Source: Phoronis australis (lineage: Eukaryota > Animalia > Phoronida). From it: DNA of 64,000 nucleotides. Position 1 is the stretch's first letter. Every line of letters starts with the position of its first letter. Below, piece after piece: positions 10,179 to 45,920 of the stretch. The DNA is taken from positions 1,508,442 through 1,572,441 of the forward strand of contig NMRA01000006.1 of assembly GCA_002633005.1 (NCBI GenBank). Direction: 5' to 3'. The notes below the pieces were generated by a model. The model was not told the origin of the DNA and searched no databases. It saw nothing but the letters and a program-made list of their open reading frames with translations. The position numbers and the translations under genes were made by a program.

Positions 10179-11501
10179 CTGAAATTAAACGAGACAGTTA
10201 CAACTTGATTGATCATTAATTCTGTTTTTACAAAAAATGACCTGCATGTGTTATGATTTCAAGTGGGCCTAATATAAATTTGGAAGTCCAAACCACACTC
10301 ATGACAACTAAACTCAAAATCTTCAACTCAAACGTCAAGTCCATCCTGCTTTACGACTCACTAAATCCATCATCAATAACGTCCGAGTGTTCATAAACAG
10401 ATGTCAGCACCAAGTCCTGTAAAGTAAGTGGTCTGACAGAGTAACAAACGAAACAGAGCCGGGCAGGAAGCCATAGAGAAACAGATTAAGAGGAGGAAGT
10501 GGAGGTGGATTGGTCACACGCTGTGAAAGACCAATCCAAACACCACCAATCTTGCCCTTAATTGGAACCCTCAAAGAAGACGGAAACGAGGCAGACCTGT
10601 GAAGAATCGAAGACTAACTGTCACATGTGAGTCTCTCTATTGGCATGGCATCGAACGAGATCCGAATAAAGGCTACCAAACGGAAAAGATGGCTAGCAGT
10701 CATGGTGGCCCTACGCACCTCAAGGTGCCTAAAGGCATAACTGTCAAGTAAGTGTAATTTAAATGTGTCCCAGTAATCAAAGGGGCTATAAACCCACCTT
10801 CCATCACAAAAACAAAATTTTGATTTAGACAGCTTAACATTAAGGAATTGGTCTCAAATTGCTACTAATTCGAATTCCAGAGCTTTGAAAGAACTGACAG
10901 CTACAACAGCGTGTCGCTTTATGCCGCGCCGAGCATGATCACAAAGAATAAGAACTGTCAGTTCGAAACCGCCTCCAGTCTAATTAAGGAACAAGCTGAG
11001 ATCAATTTCATATCAGTACGTGGTCTTAATCAAAACTTCGCNAGGATAGGAGACTCAATATTCACAAGGTTGTGTTGAAGAACACATGGTAAACAGAAAG
11101 CTATTCCCCAACACGAAGTGCCTGTGCCAAGTCCTACATGACTACGGAAAAAGCTCACCAATTTAGGACACAGTATGGCCAACAGTTGAAATTTCATTTA
11201 ATAATTTCTTTCATATGAAATGTAAATCACCAAATTACTGCTTTACTGGGTACAACTTAAATGTATGACATCTAGCATCACACAAATTTTGAAAACTTCT
11301 GGGCACTCACAACAATGCAAGACGACCTTGAAAAATGATAAGAGGAACTCTTTTGGCAATTGTTTTTGTCCGAAATTGATGAGATTTTACCGTATCCATT
11401 GCATGCATTCTTGAAGTTGGCAGACTCCATTGCCAAGAAATAGTGAATTTTGAGCGCCTCACTAGCACAAAACATAGGATTCGCATTCACAAGTATAATG
11501 T

Positions 11502-23993: not shown

Positions 23994-24069
23994 ATGGAGC
24001 TCAGGGTTGGCGGAAAGTTCCGTCTTGGTCGCAAGATTGGTAGCGGCTCATTTGGTGATATATACCTCG
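23994..24069 (+). CDS. CSNK1D: CK1 coding exon 1 (glycine-rich loop)
   Basis: ttgtag|GATGGAG...CTCG|gtaagt; a 5'UTR intron 23886-23992 is likely. Confidence 0.93.
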
Positions 24070-27000
24070 GTAAGTTCCTTTTTATTGTTATTGTTTTTAT
24101 TTATTTATCCAAGATACGAGAATCCGGAAATGGCGTTTACAGTTTGCGATTCATTCAAAATCATTTCTTTTTCTTTCCTGTAATCAGAATTTCGGAAACC
24201 AAATAGCATTCTGTGGCAAATAGAGCAAGATTCAAATGAATTTCGGTTATTTGTTTATTTCTGTTCTCAATATTCACCAACCATTTTAACAAATCGCAAA
24301 ATCAGTCAGTGACAAATGTGATGTTTCTGATAAAAAAAGTCCTGTGCGTTTTTCATACATGTAATTGAAGTCATGACAATAAAGCAATTTCCACATATAA
24401 TTGTAGATTTTAACTGCTGAAAACAATAATAATTGGATAATAAGAACCCTGGCATTAATTGTCTAAATGTGTGTCTCTGTGTTGTTGTGTCGGCTAACAT
24501 TCTAACCCACTGATGACTGTATGCTGAGCTTTGGTTCTTACTCTTAGTCATACATTCTGCGCCTGTTACGCACTACTTCGCAATGTAGCATTGAAATTTA
24601 GCTAAAAGTAATGTTTCTCATTTGTTATTCCACAGTGTAGTGTGACAGTGTTAATCTTATCTTTAGTGCTATGAATCATGGTAGCAGATCAATATGAGAT
24701 GAGTTTTAGTCAGATTAAATATTGTTTCCTTTTTTGCTTGTCAATTTGGCGGCAATAAGAAATGCCATACCAGCGATTGAACTCCTTATTAGACATTGTG
24801 TAAATTCCCTGTCATCTTAATCAGCAAGAGTCTAAATTGGGTTGCATAGGAAAAACTTTTCATCTCTTTGAAAATATGTTTTAAACTTAAGACGAGTTTC
24901 AAAAACTCTTACCAGGGCCGTCAATGCCTCAGTTTTGGGTCTGAATATCAACCTCATTGCTCTCTGAAGGAAATATTTACTTATTTGCTTTTAAAGTGCG
25001 TAAAATCACTGATGTCATCTTAAAAAACGTCGAAATTCAACCCCACCAGTCTATCAGCTGTCAAATTGCACCCTCAAACACTATCTTACGATATGTTAAT
25101 TTGCTGATCTCTGAGTTATGAGCATATATTGTTACGTAAAATTGGGACAACCAATCACACCACTAGTCATCCTCCACTGCTTTGGTATGAAATTCCATTA
25201 GATAGTACTGTTCATTTTCCCGTGGTTCATGGAATAATAAAGAATGGAGAGACGGTGCGTTTTTGGTGGTTATGACAACTCTGTGTATATAGGCCCTTTC
25301 GTGCTGACTTTACTCCAGTATAAGCGCAGTGTCAACGTAAATTGTGAAGTTAATTGAATCGTTCATTCCGGTCTTGGTAGTCAACAGACATCGAAGTAAA
25401 CGGTTGGTGACGTTGTCACCATCGAAGTTATCGCAAGATATTGCTCATGCGTATGTGAAAACTTGAGAACATTTATGTGTGCTAATTGACATACGGTAAA
25501 ACTTATTTACAATTCGATTGGTGATAATTCAAGCAAAGTATAAGCAACTTTAATTGTTGATGATAGCAGTGGCCCCTGGTGGTAATTTCAATGAGACCAC
25601 AGTTGACCGTAAATACCGTACAGCAGCGTCGACACTCCAATGTTAAGTCCACCTGGTTACTGTGAGGTTAACTGGTGCTGTTAACTTCGATACAGGACTG
25701 AAGTTGATCGTTCATACTGACCGCAACTCCCCAAAACATGGACGCGTCGAGGTTAGTATGAAAAGGCCTATGACAATGCTGTGCTGTGGCTTTTTTACTT
25801 TCCCTTGGAACATCAGAGAAGCACGGATATTGTGCATGGTGTACAATAAACTCGTGTGTTGGTGGACATGACATTAGAGTTGGGTACATTCATACGACAC
25901 GTTCATTTCTGTGGGGCTAGGAAACTCTCAAGTATAGTAATTTTTCTTCTGTTTTCTCATTATGTGGATATTGAATTCAGGATTGTGATGTGCAGTACTA
26001 TAAAGGATGGTCTAATGATGCTGACAATGAAGTCACTTTTCAAAACAATGTAAACTGTGGTTTTAAGCACTTATAGCAAAATTTGCTTCACCAGGCCCAG
26101 AAACTCCTCACTAATGATCAACGTTCTCCTCAAGATTAGACATTCCGTTAGTAAGTTTTATTAACGGCAAAACTCCGCACGTCTACGCCATGTGTCACAG
26201 CCTTGAGCTGGTGAACAGGATGTAGGTTAGTTTATTGCAGTCTGCAAATGTAGGGGCAGTTATGCAGTGTCGAGAAAGAATGGCAATCATGGGAGTCCTC
26301 GGTTCACAATTCAACTCCCCTGCTACTTAGGCGACACTACCAAGTGGTGTTCAAGGCATTGCTTTGAAATTACTTCAGAGAGCTCAGTTTTGGGGCTATT
26401 GATAGGCTGAAAACGAAGAGCGGGGTTGTAGTTAGGGTAAAATCGGCGGGGTATTTTCTCGTTGAAAATAATTTCCGTATCAGAAGAGATTGTCGTCCTT
26501 CCCTTCAGGTGAGCGAGGGCACTGCTTATTACCTTCAACTCTTAATTATTCTATTCGTAACCTCATTGAAGCATGCTTATGCGAATTATGACAGATTTAA
26601 NAAAACAATGTAAACTGTGGTTTTAAGCACTTATAGCAAAATTTGCTTCACCAGGCCCAGAAACTCCTCACTAATGATCAACGTTCTCCTCAAGATTTGA
26701 CATTCCGTTAGTAAGTTTTATTAACGGCAAAACTCCGCACGTCTACGCCATGTGCCACAGCCTCGAGCTGGTGAACAGGATGTAGGTCATTGCCTAGTTA
26801 GTTTATTGCAGTCTGCAAATGTAGGGGCAGTTATGCAGTGTCGAGAAATAATGGCAATCATGGGAGTCCTCGGTTCACACTTCAACTCCCCTGCTACTTA
26901 GGCGACACTACCAAGTGGTGTTCAAGGCATTGCTTTGAAATTACTTCAGAGAGCTCAGTTTTGGGGCTATTGATAGGCTGAAAACGAAGAGCGGGGTTGT

Positions 27001-30000
27001 AGTTAGGGTAAAATCGGCGGGGTATTTTCTCGTTGAAAATAATTTCCGTATCAGAAGAGATTGTCGTCCTTCCCTTCAGGTGAGCGAGGGCACTGCTTAT
27101 TACCTTCAACTCTTAATTATTCTATTCGTAACCTCATTGAAGCATGCTTATGCGAATTATGACAGATTTAACATAGAACTTGCGCCCCATTTTTGATGCC
27201 ATTAACTTCGGAGTTGAGCTTATGAAACGTGACGAATAACGACCTTCAGCATTTTGTCTATCATAGCACGTCATTTATTGAACTATTACTATATTGCAAA
27301 ATCTGCTTGTTGAGATAAAAGTCTATGTTGACTTGGCAGAGTTTTTGTGGTTTAGTCAAGCTCTCTTCTCAATGATTATGTGATTAAATTATCTTGTAAT
27401 ATTCCAGTTAATTAAGCTTTATTTTACGCCTTTCCTGAATTTTTTAAATGATTAGTTTTTATTAGGAAGCTCACTCACCTTTCTCTTTATGTGGTGACAA
27501 GAGCAGGCAAGAGGTTGACACAGAGTGTTGCTGCTATATATTTAGTTGTTTGATTTGTAAGACAAATTTTTAAGCTCAAGGTTTAAGAGTAGCTGATTGT
27601 AGAAATGGTCAACACAGAATTGCTTTACGTTATTGTCATCAGTTCAGTTTGGTAACGGTTTTTGGTTGTGGAGGGGTTTCAGTTATGAGGAATTTTTGTT
27701 TTGAGTAACAACATCATCATTCCCACTATTGTGGGTATGAAGTCTGCGTAATGTCTTGAGTCTATTTGTTTGAGCTGTCATAATTTCGTAAGTGCTAGCT
27801 TGTTGCCATCACGAGGTTCAGGTTGAGGTTAAAGCCAGGTCAGTGCGCTTTTAATCTCTAATCAGGTTGTGTCGTGGCTCTGAGGCATTGTCTGTCCCGA
27901 TTCTGGCCTGGGACACTTGGCCCTTAGTAGACAGAGCTTGGCAGCATTCGCTTGACTGGTTCCTTGCAGTGTTACCAGTGCACTATTGAACAGCTGAGGA
28001 GGTCAAGTTCATTGTTTACCTATTGTTATTGTTGTAGGGCTATGTTATTGGTTGTTCCTGTGGTTGTGGGATGAGACAGACCTTGCCACTTCAAAGTCTA
28101 CTGCAGGGACTAGTCTAAGTGCCTTTGTTCTTGGCTGGTCTGGTTATAACTTTGTGATTCGGCTGTCTAATTTGTAACTCCTGCAAATGTTAAGGTATAC
28201 CCCTGCTAAAAATTCTGATAGTCCGACCTAACGTAATTTTGCCCCATTGTGCTGCTGGTAAATGTAGAGCATCCAATAATACAGTTGTTTTATTTTGTTC
28301 CTGCCCGTTGTTTAGAAAACACCTATGTCCTCTTGTGATAGTGTTCAATTTGGCGCTGTTTTTGCTTATAAATATAATTTTATTTGTTAGGAAGACTGAA
28401 CCTGGCAATGTGACATGTAGTAGTTGCACTGGTACTTTCTTTGTTTCTGAAAGCATTTCTATCTCTGCCTCTGCGCACACGTGTGGCTTTAGTATGGAGC
28501 TACTAATTGATGCCTGGCAAATTAAGTCAGCACGCAGCACTGGCCTCCCAGCAGCTGGTCCTGCCTATTTAGATTATACAGGAGCTATCATCCTGATGCA
28601 GGAATGTGCACTAAACAAAGATTTGTCTGGTGGAACTCCACTTGACCCTGTTAGGGGGAGGGGGCTCAGGTTGCCATCTCGCTTACAGGAGCTATGAACT
28701 GAACTTTGTGCTTGTCATTGGTTGGCGTGGTCCTGTATTCTGCACTTTTTTAGGTCATTGAGTTAGCCAAACCTGTCCCCTTGGGAGTCCTAACATCCTG
28801 GTGTAGGTGAGACAAAGCAGTTAATAGGAACATCCATGTAATGTCTTATCATGAATTTGATGGAGATGAACTATTCTAATTCCTTGTTGAAGAGGAACAT
28901 TTTTGATAGGTGAGAATTAGTAAACTACTTGCTAATAGTGGGAACGTTAATGTGGATAGATTTCACCCATTGTTCGTAAGGTTGAGGGTTTCGTTTAGGC
29001 TACATTCACTGAGATTGACAGGTTCTTGTTAGGTATATCTGCTGAGTCACGCGCCCAACTTTGATGTACACTTTATTGAGTATTAGAATGCACTCACCGC
29101 CTTGTTTGATTTGTGGAGAGATTATAGGTACTCAAGAGCTTCTGCCGTTTGTTGACAAGGCTCTAGTAAATGCTAATTCTAGTTCAAACTCGCTAAGTTT
29201 TGACAGAAACATTCAATAATGCTTGCACGCTTTTGTTGGCCTGTACGTTACTTTCTATATTTATGCCAGTCCCTCTTCACGCTATGCGCTAAAAACTGCT
29301 TTCTGTGAATGTGCTGTGTTGCGCACTGCCAATAACAACAGCAGTCCTGGTATGTGATGTGTTCAGGGATTTAGTCTCTTATGAACAGGTGTGTAATCTC
29401 ATCTGGCTTGTTGACTCCAATGTTCTAAACTCTACTTCACTGCAGTGCCTGTAGCTTATTTGTTGTGTCACAAATGGATGTATGACATTTAATGTGCACT
29501 TCACCTTTGCTTGAACTTCGATAACCCTTGACCCCACAGAAACTGCCATATGTACCAGGGGACCACTATACTGCAGTGTAGGCTGTATGGCTTACTCTCC
29601 ATTTCAAAACGGTGTTGTCTGTCTTGTTACCAGACTTGGATGACAGTGTCAAGTGTGTGCCAATAACCGTGCAGAGCATATGTCAGTGCCATGTTGGGTT
29701 CAATTTACATTAGTGCATTGTACCATGGGATGGTACACAACATGATGAAACAGAGGGGTGGGAACAGTGTTAGATGTTTACACATGTTAGTGACAAGCAG
29801 AGTTGTGCAGTCTGACTCTGTTGTGGTAGTTTTCATTGCCCTCATCTAAATCAACAAATTCACCATATCTTGACAATTTCCAGATGTTATGTTCTATGTG
29901 GGTCATTGCATATAAACATGGTGTAATACACATGAACACTGCTTCTCCCAATCTGATTTTGCAGTCTAATCATGTAGCATGGTGGGTAATGGTCTGGTAT

Positions 30001-33000
30001 AATAACTGCCCGAATTTTGAGAACCAGTTTTCTCCACTGAATCACTGGCATAAACTGGTTCTCAAAATACGGACACGTTATATCAGACTATTGCCACATG
30101 GTCAGTGCTGATGGTGACCATTTGCAGAAAAAAATGCTTACGTCTGATACAAGTCTAAACTTTGGAGGAAGGTGCCTGGTCACAAGACCTGGGTAATGGT
30201 AGGACCTCGCTAAAATCTAGCCAAAATCTCGTGTTCTCGCGAGGTCCTGGGGTTACTAAACTCTACCCTGCAGTTGCCTTGATTGCTGTGCAGGCCTCGA
30301 CATAGCAAGTACACACTCGAAAATACAAGTTGCAATTGTGAAATAAAAAGAAGCAGTGTCTCACGCATAGATTTTCACCAAATGCAAATTTGCGAGAATC
30401 CCAGAATTCCCAAGTCGCCTAACAAGATCTGAGGTCGCCGAAATTGACATAATCGACCAAAAACTTTCATGCTGCACTCCGTTCTCAAAAATATGCGCAT
30501 ACCTCTTCCGTTTCCATTTCTCACGTGAAAAATATGCACCTTTAAATTTCCAACTCAATTCCTCCTGCCAATGAAGAACACAAATGATCAGATACACTGG
30601 AGGTGCATGTTTCATGATCCAATCTTGATCGATTTTGGCTGAACATGTCCGACTTCTGTCTGTTTACTTCCTGTTTTAATTTAAGCGCATGTTTATTGTG
30701 TGCTGGATTTGCAAAATAAATGGAACAACTGTGAACCAAAGGCATTGAATGTAGGAAAACTGTTAGTAATTTAAAGTTTGGAAGTTACCACAAATTTGGA
30801 GGGAAATATTGCCTCACTTTGATACTCGTGGCGGCTTCGGGGATTTTTCCCAGGTCGCTAAACACAATCTGAAGTTGCTTTGGTGACTTGTAGGTCGTCA
30901 AAGCGAGCACTGAAGCAAAAAATTGACCTCACTGTTTATGAGTGAAAATCTGGAGACACAGCGCCGAATACGTCCTCGCTCATATTTTCGAACGGTCATA
31001 TTTTCGTGTGGGCATTTTTACCTGTGTCGAGCACTGCAGTGTGTATGTTTGTTGTGGGGTCAGAAACGTGCAGAACTCGACCACTTGGTCCGCTTCACAC
31101 CGCTTCTCCGTCTCTGGTAACGTTGCCTCTGGCTGTGGTGGGCTGCGCTAGCGTACTATACCTATCTCTCTCAAACAGGCACTAACATTTCCATGGGCGA
31201 AGAGGTGGCCATCAAGCTGGAGTGTGTCAAGACCAAACACCCGCAGTTACACATCGAGAGCAAGTTCTACAAGATGATGCAGGGCGGAGGTAGGTCGCGC
31301 TCTGTTTAACCCCTACCATTAACATACTCACCCGTGGCTGTGGCGGTAGATCATGACAGCCACACTGCCCTGTCCGCCTGTCTGCATCTGTCCGCCTGTC
31401 TTGTCTGTTCAGCGTCTCTTCGTTGGACATCGTCGGCATAGTGCTAATGGCGTGCGCCTGTTGCAATTTCTCCCCAACTAGGTACGGAGGTCCCGACGGG
31501 GGAGGAGGTAGGCATCAAGCTAGAGTGCGCCAAAACGCACCACCCCCAGCTGCACATTGAGGCGCGCATGTACAAAATCCTGCACCCGGGTGGTAAGTCG
31601 ATGACCGTCTGTAATTGTGAAGTGCTGTGTCCGCAACTGACTGTATGTATGTCGCCAATGTGCAACTATCTGTATTTGCTGAGAATGAATGCGTGTGTGT
31701 GCTTGTCATCGACGAGGAGCTGACTGTTTGAGTATTGTTAGCCAACCGTGACTGGTAAGGACTCTGAGCGTGCGTTTTCTGTGATCATGTGACCATGTTG
31801 TCCAGAACTGTGATGCTGAATTTGTTCATAAACTTGACTGCAGGGAATGGATTGCCTGATGTTCTTGTAGTGTGTGCGTTTCTGAATTTGTTTCAGATTT
31901 TTGAAACTGAACAGTACATCTGCAGACATTGGCAACTGTTTTTGGGCTTGGGTAGGCACAAACCATCCTGGCTGATCTTTTGTAGGTAGCCACTCAACGG
32001 TGAACCTTGGTCTATTGTCTTAGTAAAGGAGGAGATCATTTATTAACGATAACTGAAACCTGTTCACACAAGCACCTGAGGAGGTGCCTTTGTTTGTAGA
32101 CCTGGCAGTGGCAACTTATAGGAAATCTATAAGTGTTTGGTTACAGCACACACATTTGTTTGGTACTGTATTGTTTACTGATATGTGGGCAGGATTCCCT
32201 CTAGGGTTTTCTCAGTCAGCTGCTGCTCCTGATGATGTGAATAACGGCAGTGCAGTTGCAGTTGACTCTATTGTTGGGATGGGTCTCTTATAGTGATTCA
32301 GACATCCTGTTTGCTCAAAGGAAATAAGAAATTTTATCCAAAATTTGAAATGAGGTGTATTTAGTCTATGCTCGACTCATAATACTTAAAAAATCCTTGT
32401 TTAATTCTTGAAAGAGTGTCTCATTTTTGAGTTTGATTATTTTCCGCAGTAGTTCACCAACATGAATGTGAAACCATCCAGATTGAGGAAATGCGCCCTT
32501 AGCGAGAGACCCTGATTCTCCGCAATACCGGAAATGGATGTAATTTAGATAATTGGACTTCATTTCTGGAATTAGAGGTTTTGAATGTAATTCAGGTACT
32601 CTAACTAACGTTACCATAATTGAATATTTTTTGTTTTTAATTACAAAAATTAAGAATCAAATTTTGCGATTCTGGCTACAAATCTATCAACGGTCATATT
32701 GCAGGGGACATGTTCAATTATTTTTGAAAATGGTGCTCCTCTTTTTCCAGTTTTGAGAATCAACAAACATGGTTTGCAGCAAGTTATCGATAAAGTGTAC
32801 TCATGTTTATCACTTTGAAATGAAAAAGATTTTGCTAATTAACTGAATTGGGAACTTGGAATTCTATGCTTGCTCACTGGATTTCTCTGTTAATGAAAAT
32901 GGGCCTCTGATGAGTCTAACCTTGCAAGGTGTGATGCGATATCACCTAGAGTAGACTTTGATTAATGAAGAGTTTTTTGTTGCCACGTAACTAGGACGTT

Positions 33001-36000
33001 CTATGCCCTGTCTGCCTAATATTACTGCAAAAAGCAGTAATTAATCACGGTAGATAAAAACTCCACCATTTACAAGCAAGCTGCGACAGAAAGCAGACAC
33101 TGCTAAGGACACTATTGATTTCTGTTAGTTAGTTCACCCCGTGTCCATGCATGTCATTCCAAAGGCTTTCATGCAGGGATTTTGCCAAGTCATTCTACTA
33201 ACTGTTCTTGGGGTTAGGTTCAGTTGTGTAGGGGGGGTTCCTCAACATATTAGTTTAGTTGGTTGATGATTGGTAGACTGTTGATTCTATCAATGGTTTG
33301 CATTGGTGTGAGGTCATGTGGTGTGTTTGAAGATATCCTATCCACCAGCGAGGTTGGTACCGTTCAGTGATCGTGAGGAACAGGTAGGACAGCTCTGGCA
33401 TTAAAGTGGTATCTGGTACAATATTCAGTTGAAAAATCAACAGATGGCTCTGATAATGAATTTACTTTCGAAACATAGATCAACCTAGGATGTTGCCCTT
33501 GCCTCCATGGTTGCCTTGACGACTGCCTGGGTGTGTTTTGTGTTGGTGTTTGTGTGTGTATGTGTTGGTGGTTCTTAAGGTGTGTGGTTGTGCAATCAAT
33601 GTCATCTTACTGTCCATTGTTCAAACAAACTGACTTGATGTGTAATTAAGGAGTGGCTTTTGAGACTGCCGCCAGACGTGCAGCAACCAAAGGGCAGCTT
33701 GCCCCAGATCAGCTGAGCATCAAAATACACAAATGAGTCACCGGTGCTGTGAGGGAAATGATGCGAGTCGATCTCCTGTGGATTAACTATATGAGCTGGG
33801 TGCACATGCACTTAGCTGACTGTTACATTCATAAATATGAAACGGAAAACTGCCATTTGTTGTTGCTGTTCTATTGCGAAACTATAATCGTGGAACGTGT
33901 TGTAAGTTGTATTGTTTAGCAAGTGGAGAAACTATGACCACTGCTTATTCATTTAATGTCATGTTTTGGGGTAAAATCTCTCATTTTTGGATAAAATTTC
34001 CAAATTTACGCTTTTAGATTCTAACATTGTTGTGAATGCGCACAATGTTTCAAAACGTCGTATCTGTGGTACAGTATTTGATCATGGAGATGCATTTAAT
34101 TTGTTTCGTTTCATACTACATGTTTCATGAAAAAATGTTAAAAACAAAATTTCACTTGTCCCCATATTGTGTCCTAAATTGTAGAGAGTTTTCCATAGGT
34201 TACAAACTGCAGATTGCTGTAAAATTTTTACTTAATATCTCTGCTTTCATCATTGCTTGGGCTTTCTGTCCTGTGGTAAAGTAGTCACTGCTTGAACGGT
34301 AATTATCTCTTAGAACCGGTTTTCTACACTGAATAATTGGCATCGAACTGGTTCTCAAAACCTGGGACCCCCTGTAAGTGACTGTAGCCATTCAGCCTAT
34401 AATTTGAGCATTACTTTGAGGTGCTTGTTTTTTCACATTTGCGTCGAAACTTTTGTGTTTTTTTATTTTACCATTTTTGGCAATGGTGCTACAGGCTTTG
34501 TGTTCTTTTTACCATATCTGGGGGGTATACAAAAAGGACTCCTTAAAGGCGAAATCTTAAGACGTGTTTGGTTTATTTATGGACATTCAGAGGAAATTAC
34601 TCAATTGTTAGACATCTTCGGAGACAACTGTTGTTAATTTATTCTCTTGATAAGAAAAGTTCGCCAGCGTGACATTATGATTTCTTTTCAGTGGGTATTC
34701 CCAGTATTAAGTGGAGCGGTACGGAGGGTGATTACAATGTGCTGGTCATGGAACTCCTCGGTCCGAGTCTAGAGGACCTATTCAACTTCTGTAATCGCAA
34801 GTTCAGCACAAAGACAGTATTGCTATTAGCCGACCAGCTAGTAAGTGGACAGTGCCAAGGACGTCGTTCTCACATACGGATGTATTGGGACTGAAATGAT
34901 GCACTGGCGCACAGTTCAAGGGCCCTTTGAGCCCGCACTTAACATCACAATGGGGGTGGGGTTGTGTTTGATTTGTTTGATTTTGGTTTAGGTTAAACTT
35001 TTTGTATAGAACAAAGACTCGACGCTACAATGTCTGTAACTGACATTTTTTTATAAAAACATCAAGTTGGATTTACTTGGAAATCCTGAAGTGCTTTTTG
35101 CTAACATTTGTCCACAGCATTTCGGAGTCCAAAGAAAATACGTTTTCTGAGTCCTGCGTATCAAAATCATTAACAACCGCATTGAAATTAACTGTGCCAG
35201 TAGGCTGTTGCCTCGTTTCAGTCCCGGTGCGGGTGTATGTGTGCACGCGTGCGTAGGTGGTTCCCAGTAGATGACCCATCTCTCTATCGCGTCTGTCTGT
35301 TGTTGGTTTCAGTCGGCATCCCCACCATCAAGTGGTGCGGGGCAGAGGGCGACTACAACGTGTTGGTCATGGAGCTACTCGGCCCCAGCATCGAGGATCT
35401 GTTCAACTTCTGCTCGCGCCGCTTCAGCCTGAAAACGGTGCTGCTGCTGGCCGACCAGCTAGTAAGTGCCCGCCCCGCGTACCCACCCCACCCTGCCCCC
35501 CTTCCCTGTCCCCTGGGGGGTAGTGTGCGGGGGTGGTGGGCGTGCTCTGCATGTTGTCACCGCGTGACTCGATGTTGTATGCATCCTCTCTCACCCACCA
35601 CTTGACGGTTGTAGCCGGCAGTTACACAGGAACGTCCATCCTCTAGAAGCACCTATGGGTGCCTTTCGAGGAAAATTGTCATTGCTATTTTAAGAGGGCA
35701 TTCACATGTAAATTTACCTTTTTTAACTGAAAAGTAACTATTTCTATGAACACTGCTGTTAACTTGACCAATTGAGTTTCAGAAACGACAAAACAGTTTT
35801 CTTCACAAAACCCCCTTGTGCCACCACACATGGACTGCCAGACTAAACCAAGTGTCTTGTGTGAAGTTAGGCTGTTGTGCTATAGCTTCTGCTGCCTTAT
35901 CTGCCATTTTCACATCCACAACCGGTCATCAAAAAGGTCATTCGTTGTGGACGTCCTCATTATCTATGCTAGCACTTCCAGTCCTAGTTGTTGTTATCTC

Positions 36001-39000
36001 TGCTAGATGTTTGCCAACAACCCTGTGTGTGTTTGTGTGGATTTGACTGATAGTTTGTTGATGACTTAACTTCATTGTCCCCCGCCACGCAGTCAAACGC
36101 GAAGGAGGGACATCGTATTCATGTCTGTATGATGCATTGTTTTTGACTTTATATATTAAGAAGGTCAATTCTAATGTCCTTGATGTCATTTTCAAAGCTG
36201 TGAGAAATTTAGTTTTGATCTGAGGGATGCACCTGAGTGATATGTCAGGGTGGGAGGTTTCGATTTCGTTCATGTTGGCAAACTTGGCCTCATCTTCATG
36301 GTAGTAGCGAGTAATTTAAGAGTGGTCGTACATCTCAAGGAATCTGTTGACTGTGGAATTTAGGAGTTGGATTTAGAAAATGTTGGCCCGGCATCTTTAG
36401 AAGGTACAAGCTACCCAAACAATATAGCTCAGTCACCCAAGAACATAGCTCGGCACTCATTAACACGACTCACTGACCGTTAAAGTCAGATCACTGGCTC
36501 CTGAAAAGCCTCACACAACACGACTTAGGCATCCAAATGGCATGGTTCATGTAACACAAACATGACCCAAGGACGAAATGTTCACTTTTTTGTTTTCCAC
36601 TTTGCCATCTAGGGGCAATAAAAAGTACAATGTAGAAATCTCTAAAGACTATTCAGTTCTGTAGCAAAGTGCTACCTTTCCCCTGTCATTCTAGTCGCCA
36701 ATCCGATGGTTACGCACACATCATGAATATTATTAATGTCCAACAGTTTTAAGCCCCTGTCCTATGAATACATTTGTTTAAACAGATTTTTTGTGTAACA
36801 AATGACTACTTGGCTTCACGTGATTTGGTATGCCTGAGCACTTTTTTTCAAGTGTATACAGACCGCCTTGTTGCTAATTGCTGCATTTGACAAGTGTTGC
36901 AGCAAGACTCTTATTGCCGTGGCCTGCCTATCTAGGTTAGTCGGTCCTCACAGTACACATAATCATTCTCATGTTTTGGACGTTTTGTCTCATGCAGCAT
37001 GTGCTTTCCTTAGAATCAAATTTTGCTCCATGAACCACTTTCTCTCTCTTGTCCAGTTGTAGAGTACAGACAAGTTGAGTAAGCTGGCACTCATGGTACA
37101 GTCATTGCAATTCTGGAGCTTTCATATTAAGATAACTGAGCTGATGGTCGTTTTTCAAATGCATTGTATAGTGGTTGTCTGTTCGCAAATGTCCACTGAC
37201 ATCACTGAAAATTTGGAGACATGTAGAAACCAGGGTTGTATTTAGTAGGCGCAACAATTTAGCGAGTTAAGGTTGGATCAGATGACACGTGTCTTGAGAA
37301 ACTTTTGCACAAAAAAATGCTGAAAGTCTGCGTATTCATCCAATGCTTCTGTAGCTTGTGTCAGTTTTATATTTTTATATGATTGTTGTTTTGTCATTTT
37401 CGCACCAAAAAGCAGTTGTGTTCCGGTGATTTCAGTTCTAGTGCATACAAGAGATAAGTGTTGTTTTTTGTCTTGCGGTTTAATACTCATCAAGTTTTCT
37501 GTGATGTCACCGAATGTTTCCAAGCCATCAGCCGTCTGATACTGCATTTGAAAAACGACAGCAGACCGGAAATTCCCCAAATTAATGTACGTGTATGTTA
37601 TCAAGTGCCAAATGTTTGCAAAAAGCAGTCTTGCTAATTGGTTTGCTAAAATGGCTAAATGATTTCAAATGTTTTAGCAAACTGGGCTGAAGCATTTAAA
37701 GGCTATCATGAGCCTACTTTGATACACTGTACAGAGAGCGACGATGGCTGGGGTTCATGAGGATCAAAGTGTGTTCTTAAGCATTAAAGTGCATGAGAAC
37801 GTAAATACCCGCTGTAGCTCGTAAGGAACGAATTGTGCCCGTGAAAAAGAAAACCTTCGTGAGAACTTCCTTTCAGATTGTTTAGGGAGGACTGCTTACC
37901 TTGCTGTATATGCTGGCTTGTGTGTCACATTTAGTGTGTGAAACTACTGTCTGTACCAGTTACATGTGTTGGTTTATTATCGAATGTGCTTTCTTATTCT
38001 TCTAGAGATTCGGTTACACAATGACAATAAAAAGTCAGTCCTAACAATACCTGTTCTGCACAAGTAGAATGTTAGACTGTGCTTAAATCTTCTGTAGGGA
38101 GATCTTCAGTTTTTTTCAAGAAGCAAAAATGTTGCTTGCTCATTAAGTGAAGTTTGATATTTTGGGTGTTCCAAACGACACGCGTGTGCCTTATGTGCAT
38201 TCGCCTTTGAGGGTGTACGTTCTCCCAGACTTTCCTGACTTTATAAGTGTCTGTTCACAAAACATGATAAAATGAAAAGTGCAATCTGTCCGCTCACAGT
38301 ATCCCGATTTCGGTATTCAAATATGGAACCATCTGCTGACATTCCCTGACCAAGGATCATGCAAATCCCAGAATTTGTTACACTCACCAAATATATGAGC
38401 CAACACGCATTGTCAATACGTTTGTCATCGTCCACTTCAGGGAAACTAACCCGCCAGATACTGATCTGCTTACAGTTCCAAGAGGGTCTTTTCGAGACCA
38501 ACCTTGTTGCATTATCACGACACCTGGTGGTTTACTTTGCTTACTTTCTGTGTAGATAAGTCGAATAGAATACATCCACTCCAAAAACTTCATCCACCGT
38601 GACGTCAAGCCAGACAACTTCCTAATGGGCCTGGGCAAGAAGGGCAATCTGGTGTATATCATTGACTTTGGCCTAGCCAAGAAGTACCGGGACGCGCGCA
38701 CCCACCAGCACATCCCCTACAGAGAAAACAAGAATCTCACGGGCACGGCCCGCTACGCCAGCATCAACACACATCTGGGTATAGGTGAGTTGAGAAACGA
38801 CCTCGTTGACGGGAGAGAACGCATGGCGAGTGGATTTGGGGTTGTGGTTTCAGAAATCCGAAGGCCGGAGAAAGTTTTGCACAGCCTTTGAAGCCTTGGT
38901 TCATTATCACACAGTCCACGTAAGAACTAGTTCTCATCAAGGCTCTCTGTAGACTACCGTGCCTTAAAGTTCAGTCGGATCTTGGCTTTGCCTGGACATA

Positions 39001-41772
39001 GTTTTGCAGTTGATCTCAGTATTTCCAACAAGTATGATTTTGCCGTTTTAGAATACAATTTTTGTCCAACTTGTATTGAGTTTTCTTATTGTTTTTACAA
39101 GGACTTTAAGATTTTCACTGTTGAAAGAGTTGCATTCACTGCAGTTCTGTGTCCACATCTGGTCGTGTAACTGTCACCGTTTCATTCCCGCTGTAGAACA
39201 AAGTCGGCGAGATGACATGGAGTCGCTGGGCTACGTCTTCATGTACTTCCTGAAGGGTAGTCTGCCTTGGCAGGGCCTTAAGGCGGCCACCAAGAGACAG
39301 AAATACGAAAGGATCAGCGAAAAGAAAATGTCCACACAGATAGAGGACTTGTGCAAGGGCTTTCCCAGTGAGTATTATTGTCGTAGGAGGTGGTAGTGAC
39401 AAAAATTAATGCGCGACACCTTCTGGGAGGGCCTGTTTATTAAAGGCTTTATGGCCTTGACTAGTTTGGCTTACTTGGTTCTTGTTAGAAAATCCAGTTT
39501 GAAGTATTGGGAGATTTGGCAGCTGTTTAGCAAATTACAATATGTTTGCTTTTAGTAACAATTCGGTGCATTTATTGCAAGAACACACAAACTGCCCATG
39601 GTATGGACATAGGTATTCGAACACGTACATGAAATTTATGTTCCCGTCTTGCTTGAATTTTCTATTTTGGAGAGCATTGGTTATGAATTTTTTTCAGTGC
39701 GTGTATGTAGTTTTGAAGTGCAGGTTTGGAATTTGTACTGCAAATTTGGCGTTTGCTAGATTAGTGGATCCAAGCGGGAAATTTTGAGGCATGGAGTCAT
39801 TTCCACCTCAGAATTTGGTTTGTGGTGTTGTCATTAGTGTAATGCTGTTGAAGAGCCAAAACAATGGGGTCCATTTCAAAATTGTAGCTTTTAAAAATGA
39901 TGCTGCGTTAATGACCACAGTATGATACAACCATCTTAGTAACTGTGCATTTAAACTTTATTAATAAAATGGGTTCTTGAAGTTAACAAAGTCCTCATGG
40001 TTTTAGCATAACATCCATTTCAGTACGAGCACACTTGTGGGTATAACATAATAACACTAAACGAATGTGAATTACGTATAAGAGACATTGAACCAAGAGT
40101 TTTATGCCAAGTCAATTTTTAAAAAATCCGGTAACTCAGCACCATCTGTACTGATACAGAGCTGTCAGGTCTGTGTTGAATGGTTACATGTTGATTGTGT
40201 GTTACGGCAGTCTGAAACGAGGCACAAGTTTTCTCATTCGCATGTAAAATAGAAGACAGAATAAGAATTATAAGTGATGACTTGCTCTGCTTCATGTAAA
40301 TTGTCTTGCATTCAGATGTTCCGGGTGGTTCGTTATTTGTTTTTGCATGCATGTAATCTTTGCCCGCTGATAGATTCGTTGTCTTTTTGTACGATATCGT
40401 AATATCTGATTATAAGTTGTTACTAAAACTTTGTCCCTGTGGCATTTGCAGCCGAGTGTTCGACCTACCTGAACTTCTGCCGGTCGCTACGCTTTGACGA
40501 CAAACCCGACTATTCCTACTTGAGGCAGCTCTTCAGAAACTTGTTCCACCGCCATGGATTTACCTACGACTACATTTTCGACTGGAACCTGCTCAAATTT
40601 GTAAGCAGCACCCTTTGATAAGTTCCCCGTCGCATGGTCCCTCCCTCTCTTTCTCTTTATTAATGTTGTTTTCCGTTGTTGGATTTTACGTGGATTGTTG
40701 TTTATGCCCTCTGTAGGAATGAAGTCCGCAGTGATTTGTTACTACACCAAAGTCTTCAAAGAATTTGACATTGAATGTGTGGATTTTTTCACTTTCTCAC
40801 AATAGAATTTCTGTAATGCTAATGAGCATCACAAGCTGCGTTCAGTGGTGCACCCCATAATATCCAGTATGTATTACTAAAATAAGTCCCTTCCTTGTTA
40901 CTTGGTATGAGCTTGAATTCTTTCTTATTGTTTTCCTTGACGTGCAGTCAAAGATGTGGTGACAGTAATTGGGTCTTAGGTCAGGCTATTAGGGTCAGGT
41001 CAATTTTTCAGCCTTAACTGATTCAGACCCTTGCCTGTCTTCCCAGATAATTAAAAGGCTGATGCTCAAACTCCGTATGTGCTACAGTACATGCCAAAAG
41101 TAATCAGGGAAAATACAATTTCCCCGTTATGATGGGTCAGTATCTGCCATGTCAGGTCATGCTATTTATTCACTTCGAAGGTGAATTTCACTTGCGCTCG
41201 GTCACCTTGATGGGGAAATCCACCTGCGCTCAGTCGCCATGACAGAGAGTTCCGGGTCATTTTGTCTGATTTTTCATGGCGTGAACTGTACCTCACAAAT
41301 GCTTGCTTGTTAATTTTCTGCCTGCCTAGTCCCTTACGTAATCTGTTCAGTGCCCAAATACTTTTCACTTATGCCTGTTGAATGTTGTATGGGTGTTCAG
41401 ATCCCTGATGTGGAGATAGAGCCATTGGCGTTAAGCTTCACAAGTTATGTTGTAATGTTTCATGGTGTTTAGCCTCTGTTGTACTGTGCTGCATGTTGCT
41501 GTCGCTAGAGCATGTTCACCCTCCTTGCGGTGGCTTTTGACCATCTCGACCCCTGTCCCCTAGGGGGGTCTGTCTGCATGCCCGGCCCCGTTCTAGTGCT
41601 GTGTCTGTCTCTCTCGTTTGCAGGGCGGTCCGGGTTCGCGTGCGGCACATGAAGACCGTTGCAAAGACCAGCTGAGAACACCGGTAAACCATCTGCGTGT
41701 TGAGTCACATCGTTTGCCAACGTCCGACTAAACTAATCACCATCCCCTAGCTTGGGTTGGCCGCCATGTTTC

Positions 41773-41804
<32 letters not shown>

Positions 41805-43155
41805 GAAGGGTGCCTGGGTGTCTGGACTAACTAGCATTTTTAACCTGCTTTAGGTTGTGATGTATCAGTCGAAAGATTTGGTTGAGGTTGAGAAATAATC
41901 GGAATGTTAACGTGTGCTTGTGTCCAAAGAGCTTCTGTTGAGAGTTACCGTTCAACATTGTACTAGCAGTATTTAATCCCTTCTACGAGCTAACGTGTAT
42001 TTGCATGTTGTGAACCTGTTGTTCTTTGCCTATGATATGTCGACCTTGTCTACAATGACAAAAATTCCATAAACGCTCGACTAGTTATTCATGTTCTATA
42101 TGCACCTTATCGAAATTTTGGCCGTGCGTCACTCTTTGACTTTGTCCAGTGTTTTGCATGCTGATGTCATTTTTGTCTATGCTATTTTATCTGTGTACGC
42201 GTTTACCCGAGTACTGAGTTCGGTTGCCTTATAGGTTTGCGTATTACGCACTCCTGCTTACGAATTGTGCACTCAGTGTCAATTCCTTTGTTTATGTAAT
42301 GTATAAAAAGTTGCTACTGTTCTTTTAAAAATCTTTTTTAGATCGAATTTCCCAGTTCATTTAGCCTCTGAAAATTCGTATGAGATTTGAAAATGAAGAC
42401 CTACTGTATAAATAAAACAATTTTATCCAGCAGTGAGCCAACGCAGATACTTCAGTAAAACCTGTGCTCACCTTAAAATTCATGGTGTACTTTAACGGAG
42501 CAAAAGTGTTTTAGTTATGATTTGATGCAACTCCCCATGGTAGTGAAAGTCTGTGCTTCTGAGACATTGGTGTGGAATTTGTCCATGCTGGTGACAGGGG
42601 TAGCGATAGTAGTTTCTTGTAGAGACTGATGGAAGTTTTACGTTCCATTTGTTGATTGCAGGGTGGCACTGGTGCTGATGATCGTACGCGTCACCACATC
42701 CACAGCTCAACGACGCGCGCCGTCCAGGGGACGAGTACGGGCCGGATACGCAGCTCCGACCATGCTGCTGGTGCTACAGCTAGTCCATCGGCCGACTACG
42801 GAGGTAGGTCGGGCGTCACTGCTGCAGGGAGTCCTGGTCATCTTGTGGGGGGATCCTGAGTTGCCCGTGTGGGCATTACTGACCGTAGTGAATATTGAGA
42901 CGGGCATGGGTAAAAATAGTGTTATGATTACGTGAAACTGCTTGAATTTTGCAGTTTTGTTTTTGGTTATGGATTTTGGTTTAGTTATTTTACATATCAT
43001 TTTTCTAAGAATTCTCTAACTAATTTATCTTTTGAATTGTGGTATTGAATTTTCTTAAATTATTTTTCAATAAGTAATTTAATTGCAGTCACTTTGAACA
43101 ATTTCTATTCAGTTGTGGCTATCCGTGGTGCTTGTATTCTTATGTGTCTGTGCAT

Positions 43156-43187
<32 letters not shown>

Positions 43188-45920
43188 GCTGTCATTGCTG
43201 TAGAATAGGCGTGTGTTAAGCTTACCCTGATGCACTCTATGCAAACTATGGGCTTCACTGAAACTCTCTAGTCTATGCATCCAAAAGGTCTCCAAAGATC
43301 CTTCACTGCCTCTTTCTGCTAGTGCCTCTCCAGCTTCTCTTGAAATAATTCACCATCACTGTGAATTGAAAAGGGAGCCTTGTAATCCACTGTTCTCATT
43401 CACGTAATGTTGAATGTCGATACATAATCCAAGATATTCTGTAAACGTGTTGGCGCATGTGTTAGTGACCTACTTAATGGTGAGTTTTGTCTTCCTCCTC
43501 CTACTTTGACGAGGTTGTAGCGGTTTGACTGATTTCAGATGTCAAGTTGTTCAGAAGGCATGTGGCTGGCACCTTCTATGTTGTTTGTTCTTAGAAGCAC
43601 CCCTGGTGTCGGCATGAGCATCTTTGGAGACTTGCACTGCTCTATTTTTCCTTTCACCTTTATCTCGCTCTATCTCTCTCTCTCTCTGTGCCACCCGTAG
43701 ACCCTGGCCCTGATCGAGTGCTTGTGCGGCCACAGACTCTGGAGCCGGCAGCCCTCCTTGCCGACCGGCCCCTAACCAGGTCACAGTCCAAAGACAAAGG
43801 CGGTGGTCTGACCCGACAGGCAGACTTGCGACCTTCTGGTCGCACAGCCAGTGCTCAGCCCAGACTGTCTGCCAATATGCACGGTCTACAGCCGGGCTCT
43901 TCAACAAAGAAGCGCAAGGAATCTGATGATTCGCGTCTACGTAGTGGGTCCTCTCGAAAGTCTGCACTTTCAAGGCCAAAGATGACAAATAACTAGCAGC
44001 GCCATCTGTTGTGAAGGAATTATCATTTTGGTTTTGGGACACTTGGTTCTGTTGTAAAAGGGTTGTCCTCATCACCTCCATTGTTGTAACGGGTCAAGAT
44101 ATAACTATATGAATCATGATTTTGAGTTTGTTGAACATCAAATCCAGTAATGTCTGGTGTTAGCCAGCTCTGTTGTACTCAATTTCCTAACACCTCAGTT
44201 TTTAGTAATGTGTAAATACTGTGTGCATATCCGTTTTATTTATTATATTTCTCAATAATTTCTATCAATTTGGAAGTGATCTGTATTGTTCCGTTTTTAT
44301 TGTTTGTGGCCGTTACTATCCACAAGTGCTGTGTATCTGCTGGGCTGAATAAACAAGATGAGTCCAAGAGTAACAGTGCACTTGTTTATGTTGAGTACAC
44401 TAGGAAATGGAGGTTGTCTCAGTCAGAATTTTTTTACAATTGCATTTATTTCATTATCGTTCATGTTGTTCTCTTGAACTGTATCCGTGTACATAATAAT
44501 ATTCCTACAGAGTTCAGGCGTCAGGAGTTCACTGTGGTTCACTGTGAAATGTGTTTGTAACCACTCCAAGTTTTTGTATGAAACGAACTTTGTCATAGTC
44601 TGTGTTGTTATCTGTTTCGTTTGTGTTTAATGTTTGCCACTGTTCAACTTATTTGTTGCCTTTGAACCACTACTGTAGAAAGTGTGAACTTTCATAAACG
44701 CTGATTTGATGAATTTGATGAAGCAGTTTTCAACAGCTGCTGTTACGTATGGCATGAAGACTCCCTCACTATTGACTTAAGTGACAAAACGAGTTGGTAC
44801 CAAGACATAAAAACTTTGTTATCAGACTCTATACACTATGGATGTTAATCACATCTCGAAACGTTAGGCCGGATTTTCTAAATCCATTTGCTAGACATTG
44901 CGAGCAGGGTATGTCGAAATATCCAATACTTAGTCCATGGGTGTTTTACGTAGATTCGAGACACTCGCGTGCTTCACTTGCAATAAGTGGCGACATCTTT
45001 TGACGACTTGCGTTTTTGCAAGTTTCTTTTGTCTGCGAAATACAGCCGTTATCACAGCTGATTGGCCAGTGTATTTTTATGTTCATAGATGATTGGTGAG
45101 ATTATATATATATATTTATATGCGAATCTGACCACTAAATGGTTTCATTACCTGTTGCCAACAGCCAAGCCTTGGGTTGCTGACACTACTTTGTTGAGGC
45201 TGGCGCATGATCACTGTACTAACATTGTTCGTAGTTTTCGTTGAGTAACCCTAACCTACCACCTTAGACTTTGTTCTGATAGTAACTGTAAACGTGTTCT
45301 CTGCTCTGTTCTGTGGTGTTGGCTTAACCTTATTTCTACCCCCAATGACTCAGTGGTGCAAGAAATGGTGACCTCACCTTCTCATGACAGTGAGTAGTGA
45401 TGAACGACTCTGGGTCACAATTTAATGAGAACTGTTCTCTCGTAAAAAAGACGGGTTTCAACTGTCTTTGTGAAATTTTAAATTCACTTTACTTTCTGTT
45501 AGTAGTATTTTGAAGGAGAGGGGTAATTTTTCTTTATTTTGGTTTGCTGGATTTCCAATTGGGTTTCTGTTACTTGGGTTTGCTGACAGTTTGCTTCACT
45601 GGAATTCCCTTTTATCGCGATGGTATGGGCTAGTGCCCTGTCCACCACGTGGTCTTCATGTCTTGCTAACCACCGAGTCGTGGGTTCTGTGTCGTCTGCA
45701 CTACTAATGCATGCTTTGTTAACCTCGTTCTACAGCCGCTCCCTCACCTAGTCGTCCAATCTCTCGTGCAGAACGCGAGCGGCGGATCAGCCAACGGCTG
45801 CACCGTGGCCAGCCACCTCTGATGACTAACCCGGAGCTGGCGCGTGAAGGCACGCGGCTGTCAAGCATGGGCCCGCCGGCGTCCAATACCCGCAAGACCA
45901 GCGCTAGCGCTCGGAGGTGA
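23994..45920 (+). CDS. CSNK1D: Casein kinase I delta/epsilon (doubletime-like); exons 23994-24069, [31179-31289 | 31482-31592], [34692-34840 | 35313-35461], 38556-38784, 39197-39367, 40452-40600, 42662-42803, 45736-45920 (403 aa), plus alternative tails
   Basis: [26 protein letters not shown]...EEVAIKLE...[10 protein letters not shown]...DFG...[15 protein letters not shown]...LPWQGLKA...DWNLLKF. Exon sizes 76/111/149/229/171/149 match the vertebrate CSNK1D/E layout as I recall it. The tail contains the delta/epsilon-type motif [20 protein letters not shown]. This is a co-ortholog of CSNK1D and CSNK1E. Confidence 0.95.
26042..27171 (+). repeat. ~560-bp direct duplication joined by single N (26601); probable haplotype overlap artefact
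   Basis: 26042-26600 versus 26602-27171 differ by a few SNPs and one short indel. Confidence 0.85.
29990..30095. mobile_element. Short hairpin/MITE family copy
   Basis: GAATTTTGAGAACCAGTT...AACTGGTTCTCAAAAT with complementary outer arms. Confidence 0.7.
31179..31289 (+). CDS. CSNK1D: CK1 exon 2a (canonical)
   Basis: aaacag|GC...GGAG|gtaggt; [37 protein letters not shown]; 111 nt. Confidence 0.93.
31482..31592 (+). CDS. CSNK1D: CK1 exon 2b (paralogous alternative exon)
   Basis: caactag|GT...GGTG|gtaagt; [37 protein letters not shown]; 111 nt, same phase, K38 and E52 retained. Confidence 0.85.
34692..34840 (+). CDS. CSNK1D: CK1 exon 3a
   Basis: ttttcag|TG...CTA|gtaagt; [50 protein letters not shown]; 149 nt. 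Confidence 0.9.
35313..35461 (+). CDS. CSNK1D: CK1 exon 3b
   Basis: gtttcag|TC...CTA|gtaagt; [50 protein letters not shown]; 149 nt. Confidence 0.9.
38556..38784 (+). CDS. CSNK1D: CK1 exon 4 (HRD, DFG, activation loop)
   Basis: [44 protein letters not shown]...ASINTHLGI; 229 nt, GT-AG. Confidence 0.95.
39197..39367 (+). CDS. CSNK1D: CK1 exon 5
   Basis: [44 protein letters not shown]...; 171 nt. Confidence 0.95.
40452..40600 (+). CDS. CSNK1D: CK1 exon 6 (end of kinase domain)
   Basis: [49 protein letters not shown]|gtaagc; 149 nt. Confidence 0.95.
41624..41731 (+). CDS. CSNK1D: CK1 candidate alternative exon 7a (short terminal tail; internal donor at 41683 also possible)
   Basis: Strong acceptor ctctctcgtttgcag; phase-0 [35 protein letters not shown]; AATAAA at 42411. 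Confidence 0.6.
   Translation, partial: GGPGSRAAHEDRCKDQLRTPVNHLRVESHRLPTSD
41774..41803 (+). repeat. (CTG)10 microsatellite
   Basis: Seen directly. Confidence 0.95.
42662..42803 (+). CDS. CSNK1D: CK1 exon 7b (tail)
   Basis: ttgcag|GGTGGC...GGAG|gtaggt; [15 protein letters not shown] resembles vertebrate ATRGLPSTASGRLRG. Confidence 0.8.
43156..43188 (+). repeat. (TTG)11 microsatellite
   Basis: Seen directly. Confidence 0.9.
43701..43996 (+). CDS. CSNK1D: CK1 candidate alternative terminal exon 8a (basic, Ser/Arg-rich)
   Basis: Long (TC)n tract then ccgtag|; phase 1 is compatible with exon 7b; ~98 codons open, including STKKRKE; AATAAA at 44348. Confidence 0.65.
45736..45920 (+). CDS. CSNK1D: CK1 terminal exon 8b (conserved delta/epsilon tail)
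   Basis: ctacag|CC...; [28 protein letters not shown]...ARR*, similar to vertebrate [21 protein letters not shown]. Confidence 0.85.

What the first reader, a model, noticed from the sequence alone, without database searches (positions are those of the whole stretch)
34692..35461. Exon 3a/3b pair: old duplication under purifying selection across the hinge region
Seen: both exons are 149 nt with only 7 of 50 amino-acid differences (e.g. WSGTE/WCGAE, GPSLED/GPSIED, CNRKFST/CSRRFSL). Many synonymous positions differ and the flanking introns are unrelated, which excludes an assembly duplicate. Gatekeeper M82 is kept in both. Inclusion of both or neither shifts frame, so NMD could enforce exclusivity (inference). 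3b is GC-rich at third positions like 2a/2b, whereas 3a is less so.
Basis: partly seen in the sequence, partly recalled or inferred. Interest (0 to 1): 0.7.

Follow-up and report, generated by a model that had tools for sequence, protein, structure and literature searches.

The report
Swappable exons in kinase CK1 delta/epsilon
An invertebrate gene for casein kinase 1 delta/epsilon carries two intact copies of the exon that spans the kinase hinge, RNA reads join each copy to the next exon (one about 95%, the other about 5%), and the pair is likely an either-or splice switch that would give one gene two slightly different kinase cores.

Summary
Observation confirmed. Exons 3a (34692-34840) and 3b (35313-35461) of a lophotrochozoan-like CK1 delta/epsilon gene are 149 nt, differ at 7 of 50 residues, and show saturated synonymous but low replacement divergence (pS 0.83, pN 0.097). 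RNA-seq joins both to exon 4: 141 reads for 3a, 8 for 3b, rising to 5 of 22 in one of three samples. No 3a-3b joint was listed, but 3b's upstream junction was not seen either, so exclusivity is likely, not shown. Hinge and gatekeeper are identical; the changes flank them. The minor 3b is nearer the family consensus; the major 3a is the derived copy. GC3 follows local flank GC and says nothing about coupling. Two predicted RNA helices (one closing intron 3a-3b, one intronic element complementary to the start of both exons) are leads; the shared-site test was not significant. No duplicate in 80 related loci; no paper found on kinase-domain exon swapping in CK1 delta/epsilon. The scan noted such pairs before in PKA, PKC-delta and CSK, not CK1. 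New member of a known kind.

The parts
23994..24069 (+). CK1 delta/epsilon coding exon 1 (76 nt, ATG)
   Evidence: translation; loose ends matching its 3' end sit before exon 2b in 3, 5 and 11 reads
31179..31289 (+). exon 2a (111 nt), consensus-like copy of a second duplicated pair
   Evidence: 3 loose-end reads matching its 3' end before exon 3a in run X3
31482..31592 (+). exon 2b (111 nt), strongly derived copy, 14 of 37 residues differ from 2a
   Evidence: joined to exon 1 (19 loose-end reads) and to exon 3a (22 reads)
34692..34840 (+). exon 3a (149 nt, residues 63-112), major form; carries rare S71 and T102
   Evidence: 141 junction reads to exon 4, 22 from exon 2b
34865..34911 (+). 5' arm of predicted helix closing intron 3a-3b
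   Evidence: prediction only:
35193..35247 (+). 3' arm of that predicted helix (19 uninterrupted pairs 34881-34899 with 35213-35231)
   Evidence: prediction only:
35271..35312 (+). candidate branch point (A 35274), pyrimidine tract and AG acceptor of exon 3b; no other AG for 42 nt
   Evidence: motif scan; use not seen in reads
35313..35461 (+). exon 3b (149 nt, residues 63-112), minor form; nearer the family consensus; carries rare I89
   Evidence: 8 junction reads to exon 4
35562..35620 (+). element D: intronic stretch complementary to the first ~60 nt of both 3a and 3b (candidate shared docking site)
   Evidence: prediction only; significance weak
38556..38784 (+). exon 4 (229 nt), common acceptor of 3a and 3b
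39197..39367 (+). exon 5 (171 nt)
40452..40600 (+). exon 6 (149 nt), end of kinase domain

Best explanation
Exons 3a and 3b are tandem copies of the CK1 delta/epsilon exon for residues 63-112, each is spliced to exon 4, and they are likely used one at a time, with 3a as default and 3b as a minor, probably sample- or tissue-dependent alternative. Shown: homology, equal length and phase, protein-level constraint, use of both donors. Inferred: transcripts with both or neither exon shift frame and would be removed by nonsense-mediated decay, which is the most likely safeguard; two predicted RNA helices may bias the choice towards 3a. Inferred function: since gatekeeper and hinge are the same, the swap would tune surfaces beside the ATP pocket (strand beta-4, start of helix D, the D-E loop) rather than the pocket; with the 2a/2b pair the gene could make up to four N-lobes, of which the 2a-3a and 2b-3a junctions were seen.
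For: Constraint: pS 0.83 against pN 0.097, also in codons 21-49 that element D does not cover (0.79 against 0.121, p 3e-8). Reads from three stranded RNA samples, 18-19% of each run read: 3a-exon 4 72/52/17, 3b-exon 4 1/2/5, 2b-3a 6/1/15; no 3a-3b and no 2b-exon 4 joint listed at the 3-read threshold. 3b share 5 of 22 in X4 against 3 of 127 in X2+X3, Fisher p 0.002. In X4 estimated 3b depth 5.6 against 2.2 upstream and 0.02 downstream. Both donors read CTA/GTAAGTG; 3b keeps branch point, pyrimidine tract and AG. Frame shift with both or neither. In C. elegans 14 of 19 such non-3n clusters rely partly on NMD (PMC4165533, passages).
Against: Only 8 reads carry the 3b donor, and no read joining any upstream exon to 3b was listed; missing a 3a-3b joint at a mean of 5 reads has probability 0.12. 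In X2 and X3, 3b depth does not exceed the upstream intron (2.0 against 5.3; 6.4 against 6.1), so those reads could be unfinished pre-mRNA. All three samples come from one study, tissue unknown, and X4 also differs in alleles, so tissue regulation is not separated from genotype. No relative with the same pair was found. No protein-level evidence.
Confidence: 0.8

Rival explanations
1. Exclusivity is set mainly by RNA structure: intronic element D masks the start of 3b (default, so 3a is used) or of 3a (so 3b is used), while a second helix closes intron 3a-3b and brings the 3a donor to about 50 nt from the 3b branch point, too close for the two exons to be joined.
For: D pairs with 3b at -62.7 and 3a at -50.4 kcal/mol, 46 pairs each, 36 using the same D nucleotide in register; these exon starts are the best two sites for D among 6380 windows. 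Ensemble: D core with 3b 0.66, with 3a 0.16, the same direction as the read ratio; a slightly longer fold pairs D with 3a. Intron 3a-3b folds at z -3.05, 0 of 100 shuffles as good; its 19-pair helix equals the best of 47 tiled windows and beats 60 of 60 shuffles. Precedent: human ATE1 R1/R4 compete for R3 and hinder one acceptor (PMC7797038, passages).
Against: D was found after the fact. With search space counted, 3b-D has p 0.01 as 1 of 16 tests and 3a-D p 0.36; 3a pairs no better than its likeness to 3b predicts (p 0.05-0.26). A shared site as good arose in 4 of 25 shuffles. Control exons reach similar local z-scores. The region is GC-rich. No covariation data. A helix that closes an intron can also promote its splicing (recalled). 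The ~50 nt limit is recalled from mammals.
Confidence: 0.2
2. 3b works mostly as a poison cassette or appears only in splicing intermediates: 3a plus 3b gives a premature stop and lowers CK1 mRNA.
For: 3b acceptor use not seen; intronic depth of 2-6 shows pre-mRNA in these libraries; double inclusion gives a stop with several junctions downstream.
Against: 3b is constrained in the replacement reading frame and stays closer to other animals' exon 3 (2-6 residues) than 3a does (6-8); a poison exon would not need that. No 3a-3b joint listed.
Confidence: 0.1
3. 3b is a decaying or recently silenced leftover, with 3a having taken over.
For: 3b is 1-4% of exon-4 junctions in two of three samples.
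Against: Open frame, intact splice signals, pN far below pS, 23% use in one sample; no exonic variant among the 40 of 47 differences shown (low depth).
Confidence: 0.07
4. Assembly artefact (uncollapsed haplotype).
For: The window holds three such artefact-like blocks.
Against: Those are ~97% identical and abut an N; 3a/3b are 73% identical with unrelated flanks, and reads cover the intron between them.
Confidence: 0.01

Closest known systems
Tandem duplicated exon substitutions in human kinases: FYN (FynB/FynT), MAPK8, MAPK14, CAMK2D (PMC9741552, PMC8373072; passages and one supplementary table)
   Same: Homologous exons inside the kinase domain, used either-or, giving isoforms that differ in a short homologous stretch.
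   Different: CSNK1 genes do not occur in that table or in either main text; here two adjacent pairs cover residues 26-112, and the exon-3 copies differ in only 7 residues.
Alternative splicing of CK1 delta / doubletime (PMC9794997, passages; PMC7733671, passages)
   Same: Same gene family; splice isoforms are said to tune kinase behaviour towards clock substrates.
   Different: The splicing described there is in the C-terminal tail, in insects and deuterostomes; lophotrochozoans are not mentioned. CK1 alpha L is an inserted cassette (recalled; seen only as a reference title), not a swap.
Human ATE1 exons 7a/7b (PMC7797038, passages) and Dscam-type docking/selector systems (PMC6071210 first fifth of text and passages; PMC8791459 passages; PMC8042237 one passage)
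   Same: One element complementary to matching positions of both exon copies; masking represses the paired exon; duplication of one stem arm yields competing pairings.
   Different: There the elements are conserved and tested by mutation, and lie in introns or at intron-exon borders; here the element lies downstream of both exons, pairs wholly with coding sequence, and is only predicted with weak statistics.
NMD-backed mutually exclusive exons of C. elegans (PMC4165533, passages)
   Same: Non-3n homologous exons; some with one copy strongly predominant.
   Different: NMD dependence was tested there, not here.

Membership tests
CK1 delta/epsilon (doubletime) | Kinase domain closer to CK1 delta/epsilon than to alpha or gamma | tested here: met
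   Exon 3b against solved structures: delta/epsilon E about 1e-26, alpha 2e-21, gamma 1e-13; 273 of 295 residues identical to Pomacea CK1
CK1 delta/epsilon (doubletime) | TKRQK motif and conserved exon boundaries | tested here: met
   Motif in exon 5 (named in PMC9794997); same split exons in related loci such as L010; equality with human exon lengths is recalled
Mutually exclusive tandem duplicated exons | Homologous exons of equal length and phase with intact splice signals | tested here: met
Mutually exclusive tandem duplicated exons | Each copy is spliced to the common downstream exon | tested here: met
   141 and 8 reads
Mutually exclusive tandem duplicated exons | Each copy is spliced to an upstream exon | tested here: inconclusive
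   Met for 3a; not listed for 3b; exon 2a lay outside the laid stretch and about 4 reads 2b-3b were expected in X4, P(2 or fewer) 0.22
Mutually exclusive tandem duplicated exons | Double inclusion and double skipping rare in steady-state mRNA | tested here: inconclusive
   Neither 3a-3b nor 2b-exon 4 listed at 3 reads, but depth on 3b is low
Mutually exclusive tandem duplicated exons | Both copies under purifying selection | tested here: met
   (pairwise only)
Mutually exclusive tandem duplicated exons | Both protein isoforms made | not testable with these tools
   no proteomics
Docking-site/selector competing RNA structure | One site complementary to both alternatives beyond chance | tested here: inconclusive
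   complementary in register; 4 of 25 shuffles as good; p 0.01 and 0.36
Docking-site/selector competing RNA structure | Conservation, covariation and rescue by compensatory mutation | not testable with these tools
   no related genome with the pair
Steric or spliceosome-incompatibility exclusion | Donor-to-branch-point distance too short in the linear RNA, or mixed U2/U12 sites | tested here: not met
   Intron is 472 nt, branch candidate 39 nt from the acceptor, both donors GTAAGT; U12 consensus recalled

The most novel reading that the evidence does not exclude
A CK1 delta/epsilon gene builds up to four N-lobes from two adjacent exon pairs in a tissue-regulated way, and the exon-3 choice is made by one downstream intronic antisense element that competes for the coding starts of both exon copies, backed by a helix that folds the intervening intron into a steric block: a docking system whose selectors are the coding sequence itself, switching the core of the main clock and Wnt kinase.
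Probability: 0.2. Interest if true: 0.72.

Novelty: new member of a known kind. Interest (0 to 1): 0.5.

Why it matters
CK1 delta/epsilon is nearly invariant in its kinase domain, and the splice variation I found described is in its tail. A natural pair of expressed core variants that differ at seven positions, three of them almost never changed in homologues (C71, L89, L102), is a ready-made test of which N-lobe and helix D-E surfaces set activity, partner binding or temperature behaviour. The dominant form is the derived one, the reverse of the exon-2 pair. If the RNA element holds up it would be a compact two-exon model of competing structures that use coding sequence.

Tried and rejected
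No whole genome is held. Listed isoforms of Pomacea (5) and Physella (3) each share one kinase domain, but not all isoform numbers were listed. Exon 2b: no hit; best 72% among 150 of 539 representatives; the one protein with exon 2 twice has two identical copies and is flagged as unverified, so it was dropped. A shared antisense site for 2a/2b: not found (20 of 60 shuffles as good). Four read-derived alleles beside the 3b donor weaken a local hairpin slightly (-50.4 to -46.8): uninformative. AlphaFold model of a gastropod homologue had pLDDT 49.9: not relied on. Atlas search of a neighbouring exon gave no taxon. Run X1 gave one intronic contig piece only; no indexed RNA holder was listed. Plus-strand reads at 34328-34360 come from a dispersed repeat. 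Coupling of exon 2 and 3 choice could not be tested. The Aplysia PKA cassette precedent came from an earlier scan note and was not confirmed in the passages seen. Literature searches without a CK1 kinase-domain case.

Full report
What the gene is. The region lies in a plus-strand casein kinase 1 delta/epsilon gene: exon 1 (23994-24069), 2a/2b, 3a/3b, 4, 5, 6 of 76, 111, 149, 229, 171 and 149 nt. Exon 3 matches residues 64-112 of human CK1 delta, ahead of alpha and gamma. The 2a-3a kinase domain is 273 of 295 identical to Pomacea CK1 and sits beside Capitella and four gastropod-type rows at 93/91 support, short of the tool's star; the host is probably a non-gastropod lophotrochozoan (inference).

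3a and 3b are 109 of 149 nt identical with 7 of 50 residue differences: S67T, S71C, T73A, L89I, N97S, K99R, T102L. pS is 0.83 and pN 0.097 (p 1.3e-15), the longest identical run is 12 nt, and flanks are unrelated. Residues 74-88, with gatekeeper M82 and the hinge, are identical, so the exon spans the hinge but does not change it. By the canonical kinase fold (recalled; a low-confidence model agrees) the changes fall in strand beta-4, the start of helix D, the D-E loop and the start of helix E.

Age and direction. Synonymous sites are saturated: 3a and 3b share 108 of 147 nt, while 12 chosen exon-3 homologues share 98-112 with 3a and 105-126 with 3b, so no date can be given. 3b differs from those homologues at 2-6 residues, 3a at 6-8. 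Among 214 of 215 fetched homologues, S71 occurs in 2, T102 in 0 and I89 in 0 (these were the top hits of the two exons, a biased set). Thus the minor exon is the conservative one, the reverse of exon 2, where 2a is consensus-like and 2b derived. GC3 differs (28 of 49 against 44 of 49, p 0.0005) but follows flank GC (0.40 against 0.56).

Splicing evidence. Three stranded RNA samples of one study, 18-19% of each read, were laid on 31330-38600. Junction reads: 3a-exon 4 72, 52, 17; 3b-exon 4 1, 2, 5; 2b-3a 6, 1, 15. Loose ends tie exon 1 directly to 2b (3, 5, 11 reads) and 2a to 3a (3 reads, one run). No 3a-3b, 2b-3b or 2b-exon 4 joint reached the 3-read listing threshold. 3b is 8 of 149 overall (5.4%), 5 of 22 in X4 against 3 of 127 elsewhere (p 0.002); 2b is also enriched in X4. 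Against: the 3b acceptor was never seen in use; exon 2a was outside the laid stretch and the tool drops human-like reads, so 2a-3b junctions were hard to see; introns carry depth 2-6, so some 3b-exon 4 reads may be intermediates. In X4 estimated 3b depth (5.6) exceeds the upstream intron (2.2), in X2 and X3 it does not. X4 also differs in alleles, so tissue and genotype are confounded.

Mechanism. Linear steric exclusion is out: the intron is 472 nt and the branch candidate lies 39 nt from the acceptor; both donors are GTAAGT. Both or neither exon creates early stops, so NMD is the likeliest safeguard (inferred; 14 of 19 comparable worm clusters depend on it in part, PMC4165533 passages). Two structures were predicted. 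A helix 34865-34911/35193-35247 closes intron 3a-3b (z -3.05; 19 uninterrupted pairs, equal to the best of 47 windows, above 60 of 60 shuffles) and would leave about 50 unpaired nt between the 3a donor and the 3b branch point. Element D (35562-35620) is complementary in register to the first 60 nt of 3b (-62.7) and 3a (-50.4), its two best partners among 6380 windows, and favours 3b in the ensemble (0.66 against 0.16), which would silence 3b by default as observed. But corrected tests are weak: p 0.01 for 3b as one of 16 tests, 0.36 for 3a, no clear excess for 3a over its likeness to 3b, 4 of 25 shuffles give an equally good shared site, and control exons reach similar local z-scores. It is a lead only.

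Distribution. None of 80 related loci has a doubled exon 2 or 3, though only 8 span the split exons 2-4 and none is a close relative. Listed gastropod isoforms share one kinase domain, from incomplete lists. No 2b-like exon above 72% was found. The arrangement looks lineage-limited, on thin evidence.

Comparison. Kinase-domain exon swaps are known in FYN, MAPK8, MAPK14 and CAMK2D; CSNK1 is absent from both main texts and from the one supplementary table searched (supplements of PMC9741552 and PMC9794997 not seen and may bear on this). The CK1/doubletime survey reports tail splicing and does not mention lophotrochozoans (PMC9794997 passages). PMC10167241 (passages) and PMC7733671 (passages) add no such case; five searches found none, in a library that lacks most subscription papers. 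The nearest structural precedent is ATE1 (passages); PMC6071210 (first fifth and passages), PMC4691838 (passages), PMC8042237 (one passage) and PMC8791459 (passages) give the docking/selector background; PMC12608923 (passages) added nothing. Earlier scan notes describe similar pairs in PKA, PKC-delta and CSK of other invertebrates, none in CK1.

Verdict. A real, expressed, constrained exon pair; mutually exclusive use likely (0.8). New member of a known kind, apparently unreported for CK1 delta/epsilon. Interest 0.5; the RNA-switch reading has probability 0.2 and would deserve 0.72.

Noticed in passing
window 31179-31592: Second duplicated pair 2a/2b, both multiples of three, 14 of 37 residues different; 2b is joined directly to exon 1 and to 3a, and is far more used in sample X4. 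Probably the larger functional switch.
   Followed up: partly
window 31600-34690 and 35462-38130: In X4 the intron before exon 3 keeps depth of about 1-8 while the intron after 3b is mostly near 0-2; in X2 and X3 the downstream intron is the better covered. May reflect a different order of intron removal.
   Followed up: no
window 41624-45920: Tail region: exon 42662-42803, a candidate alternative stop-containing exon near 41624, and two candidate terminal exons near 43701 and 45736 (read by eye; partly off frame; no reads laid).
   Followed up: partly
window 8690-13388, 26042-27171, 51980-54743: Three ~97%-identical tandem blocks, each abutting an N: likely uncollapsed haplotypes.
   Followed up: partly
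window 34313-34390: Short dispersed repeat with copies near 4012, 17914, 30020, 47027 and 62204; the 30007-30075 copy is a hairpin, MITE-like.
   Followed up: partly
window 35471-35542: GC-rich predicted hairpin just after the 3b donor, carrying four allele differences in X2 and X3 but with almost no coverage in X4.
   Followed up: partly
window 4065-18775 (-), 58682-58930 (-), 62640-62912 (+): Neighbours: CLUAP1 exons, a THAP domain, an acyl-CoA dehydrogenase exon (Pfam); the 4065-5027 exon looks like TRAPPC9 (recalled, no Pfam hit).
   Followed up: partly
window 24012-24020 and exons 3a/3b codon 80: Exon 1 has G7 and F9 where most homologues have N and Y; both exon-3 copies have L80 where gastropods and human have M, a shared state that fits a duplication within this lineage.
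   Followed up: no
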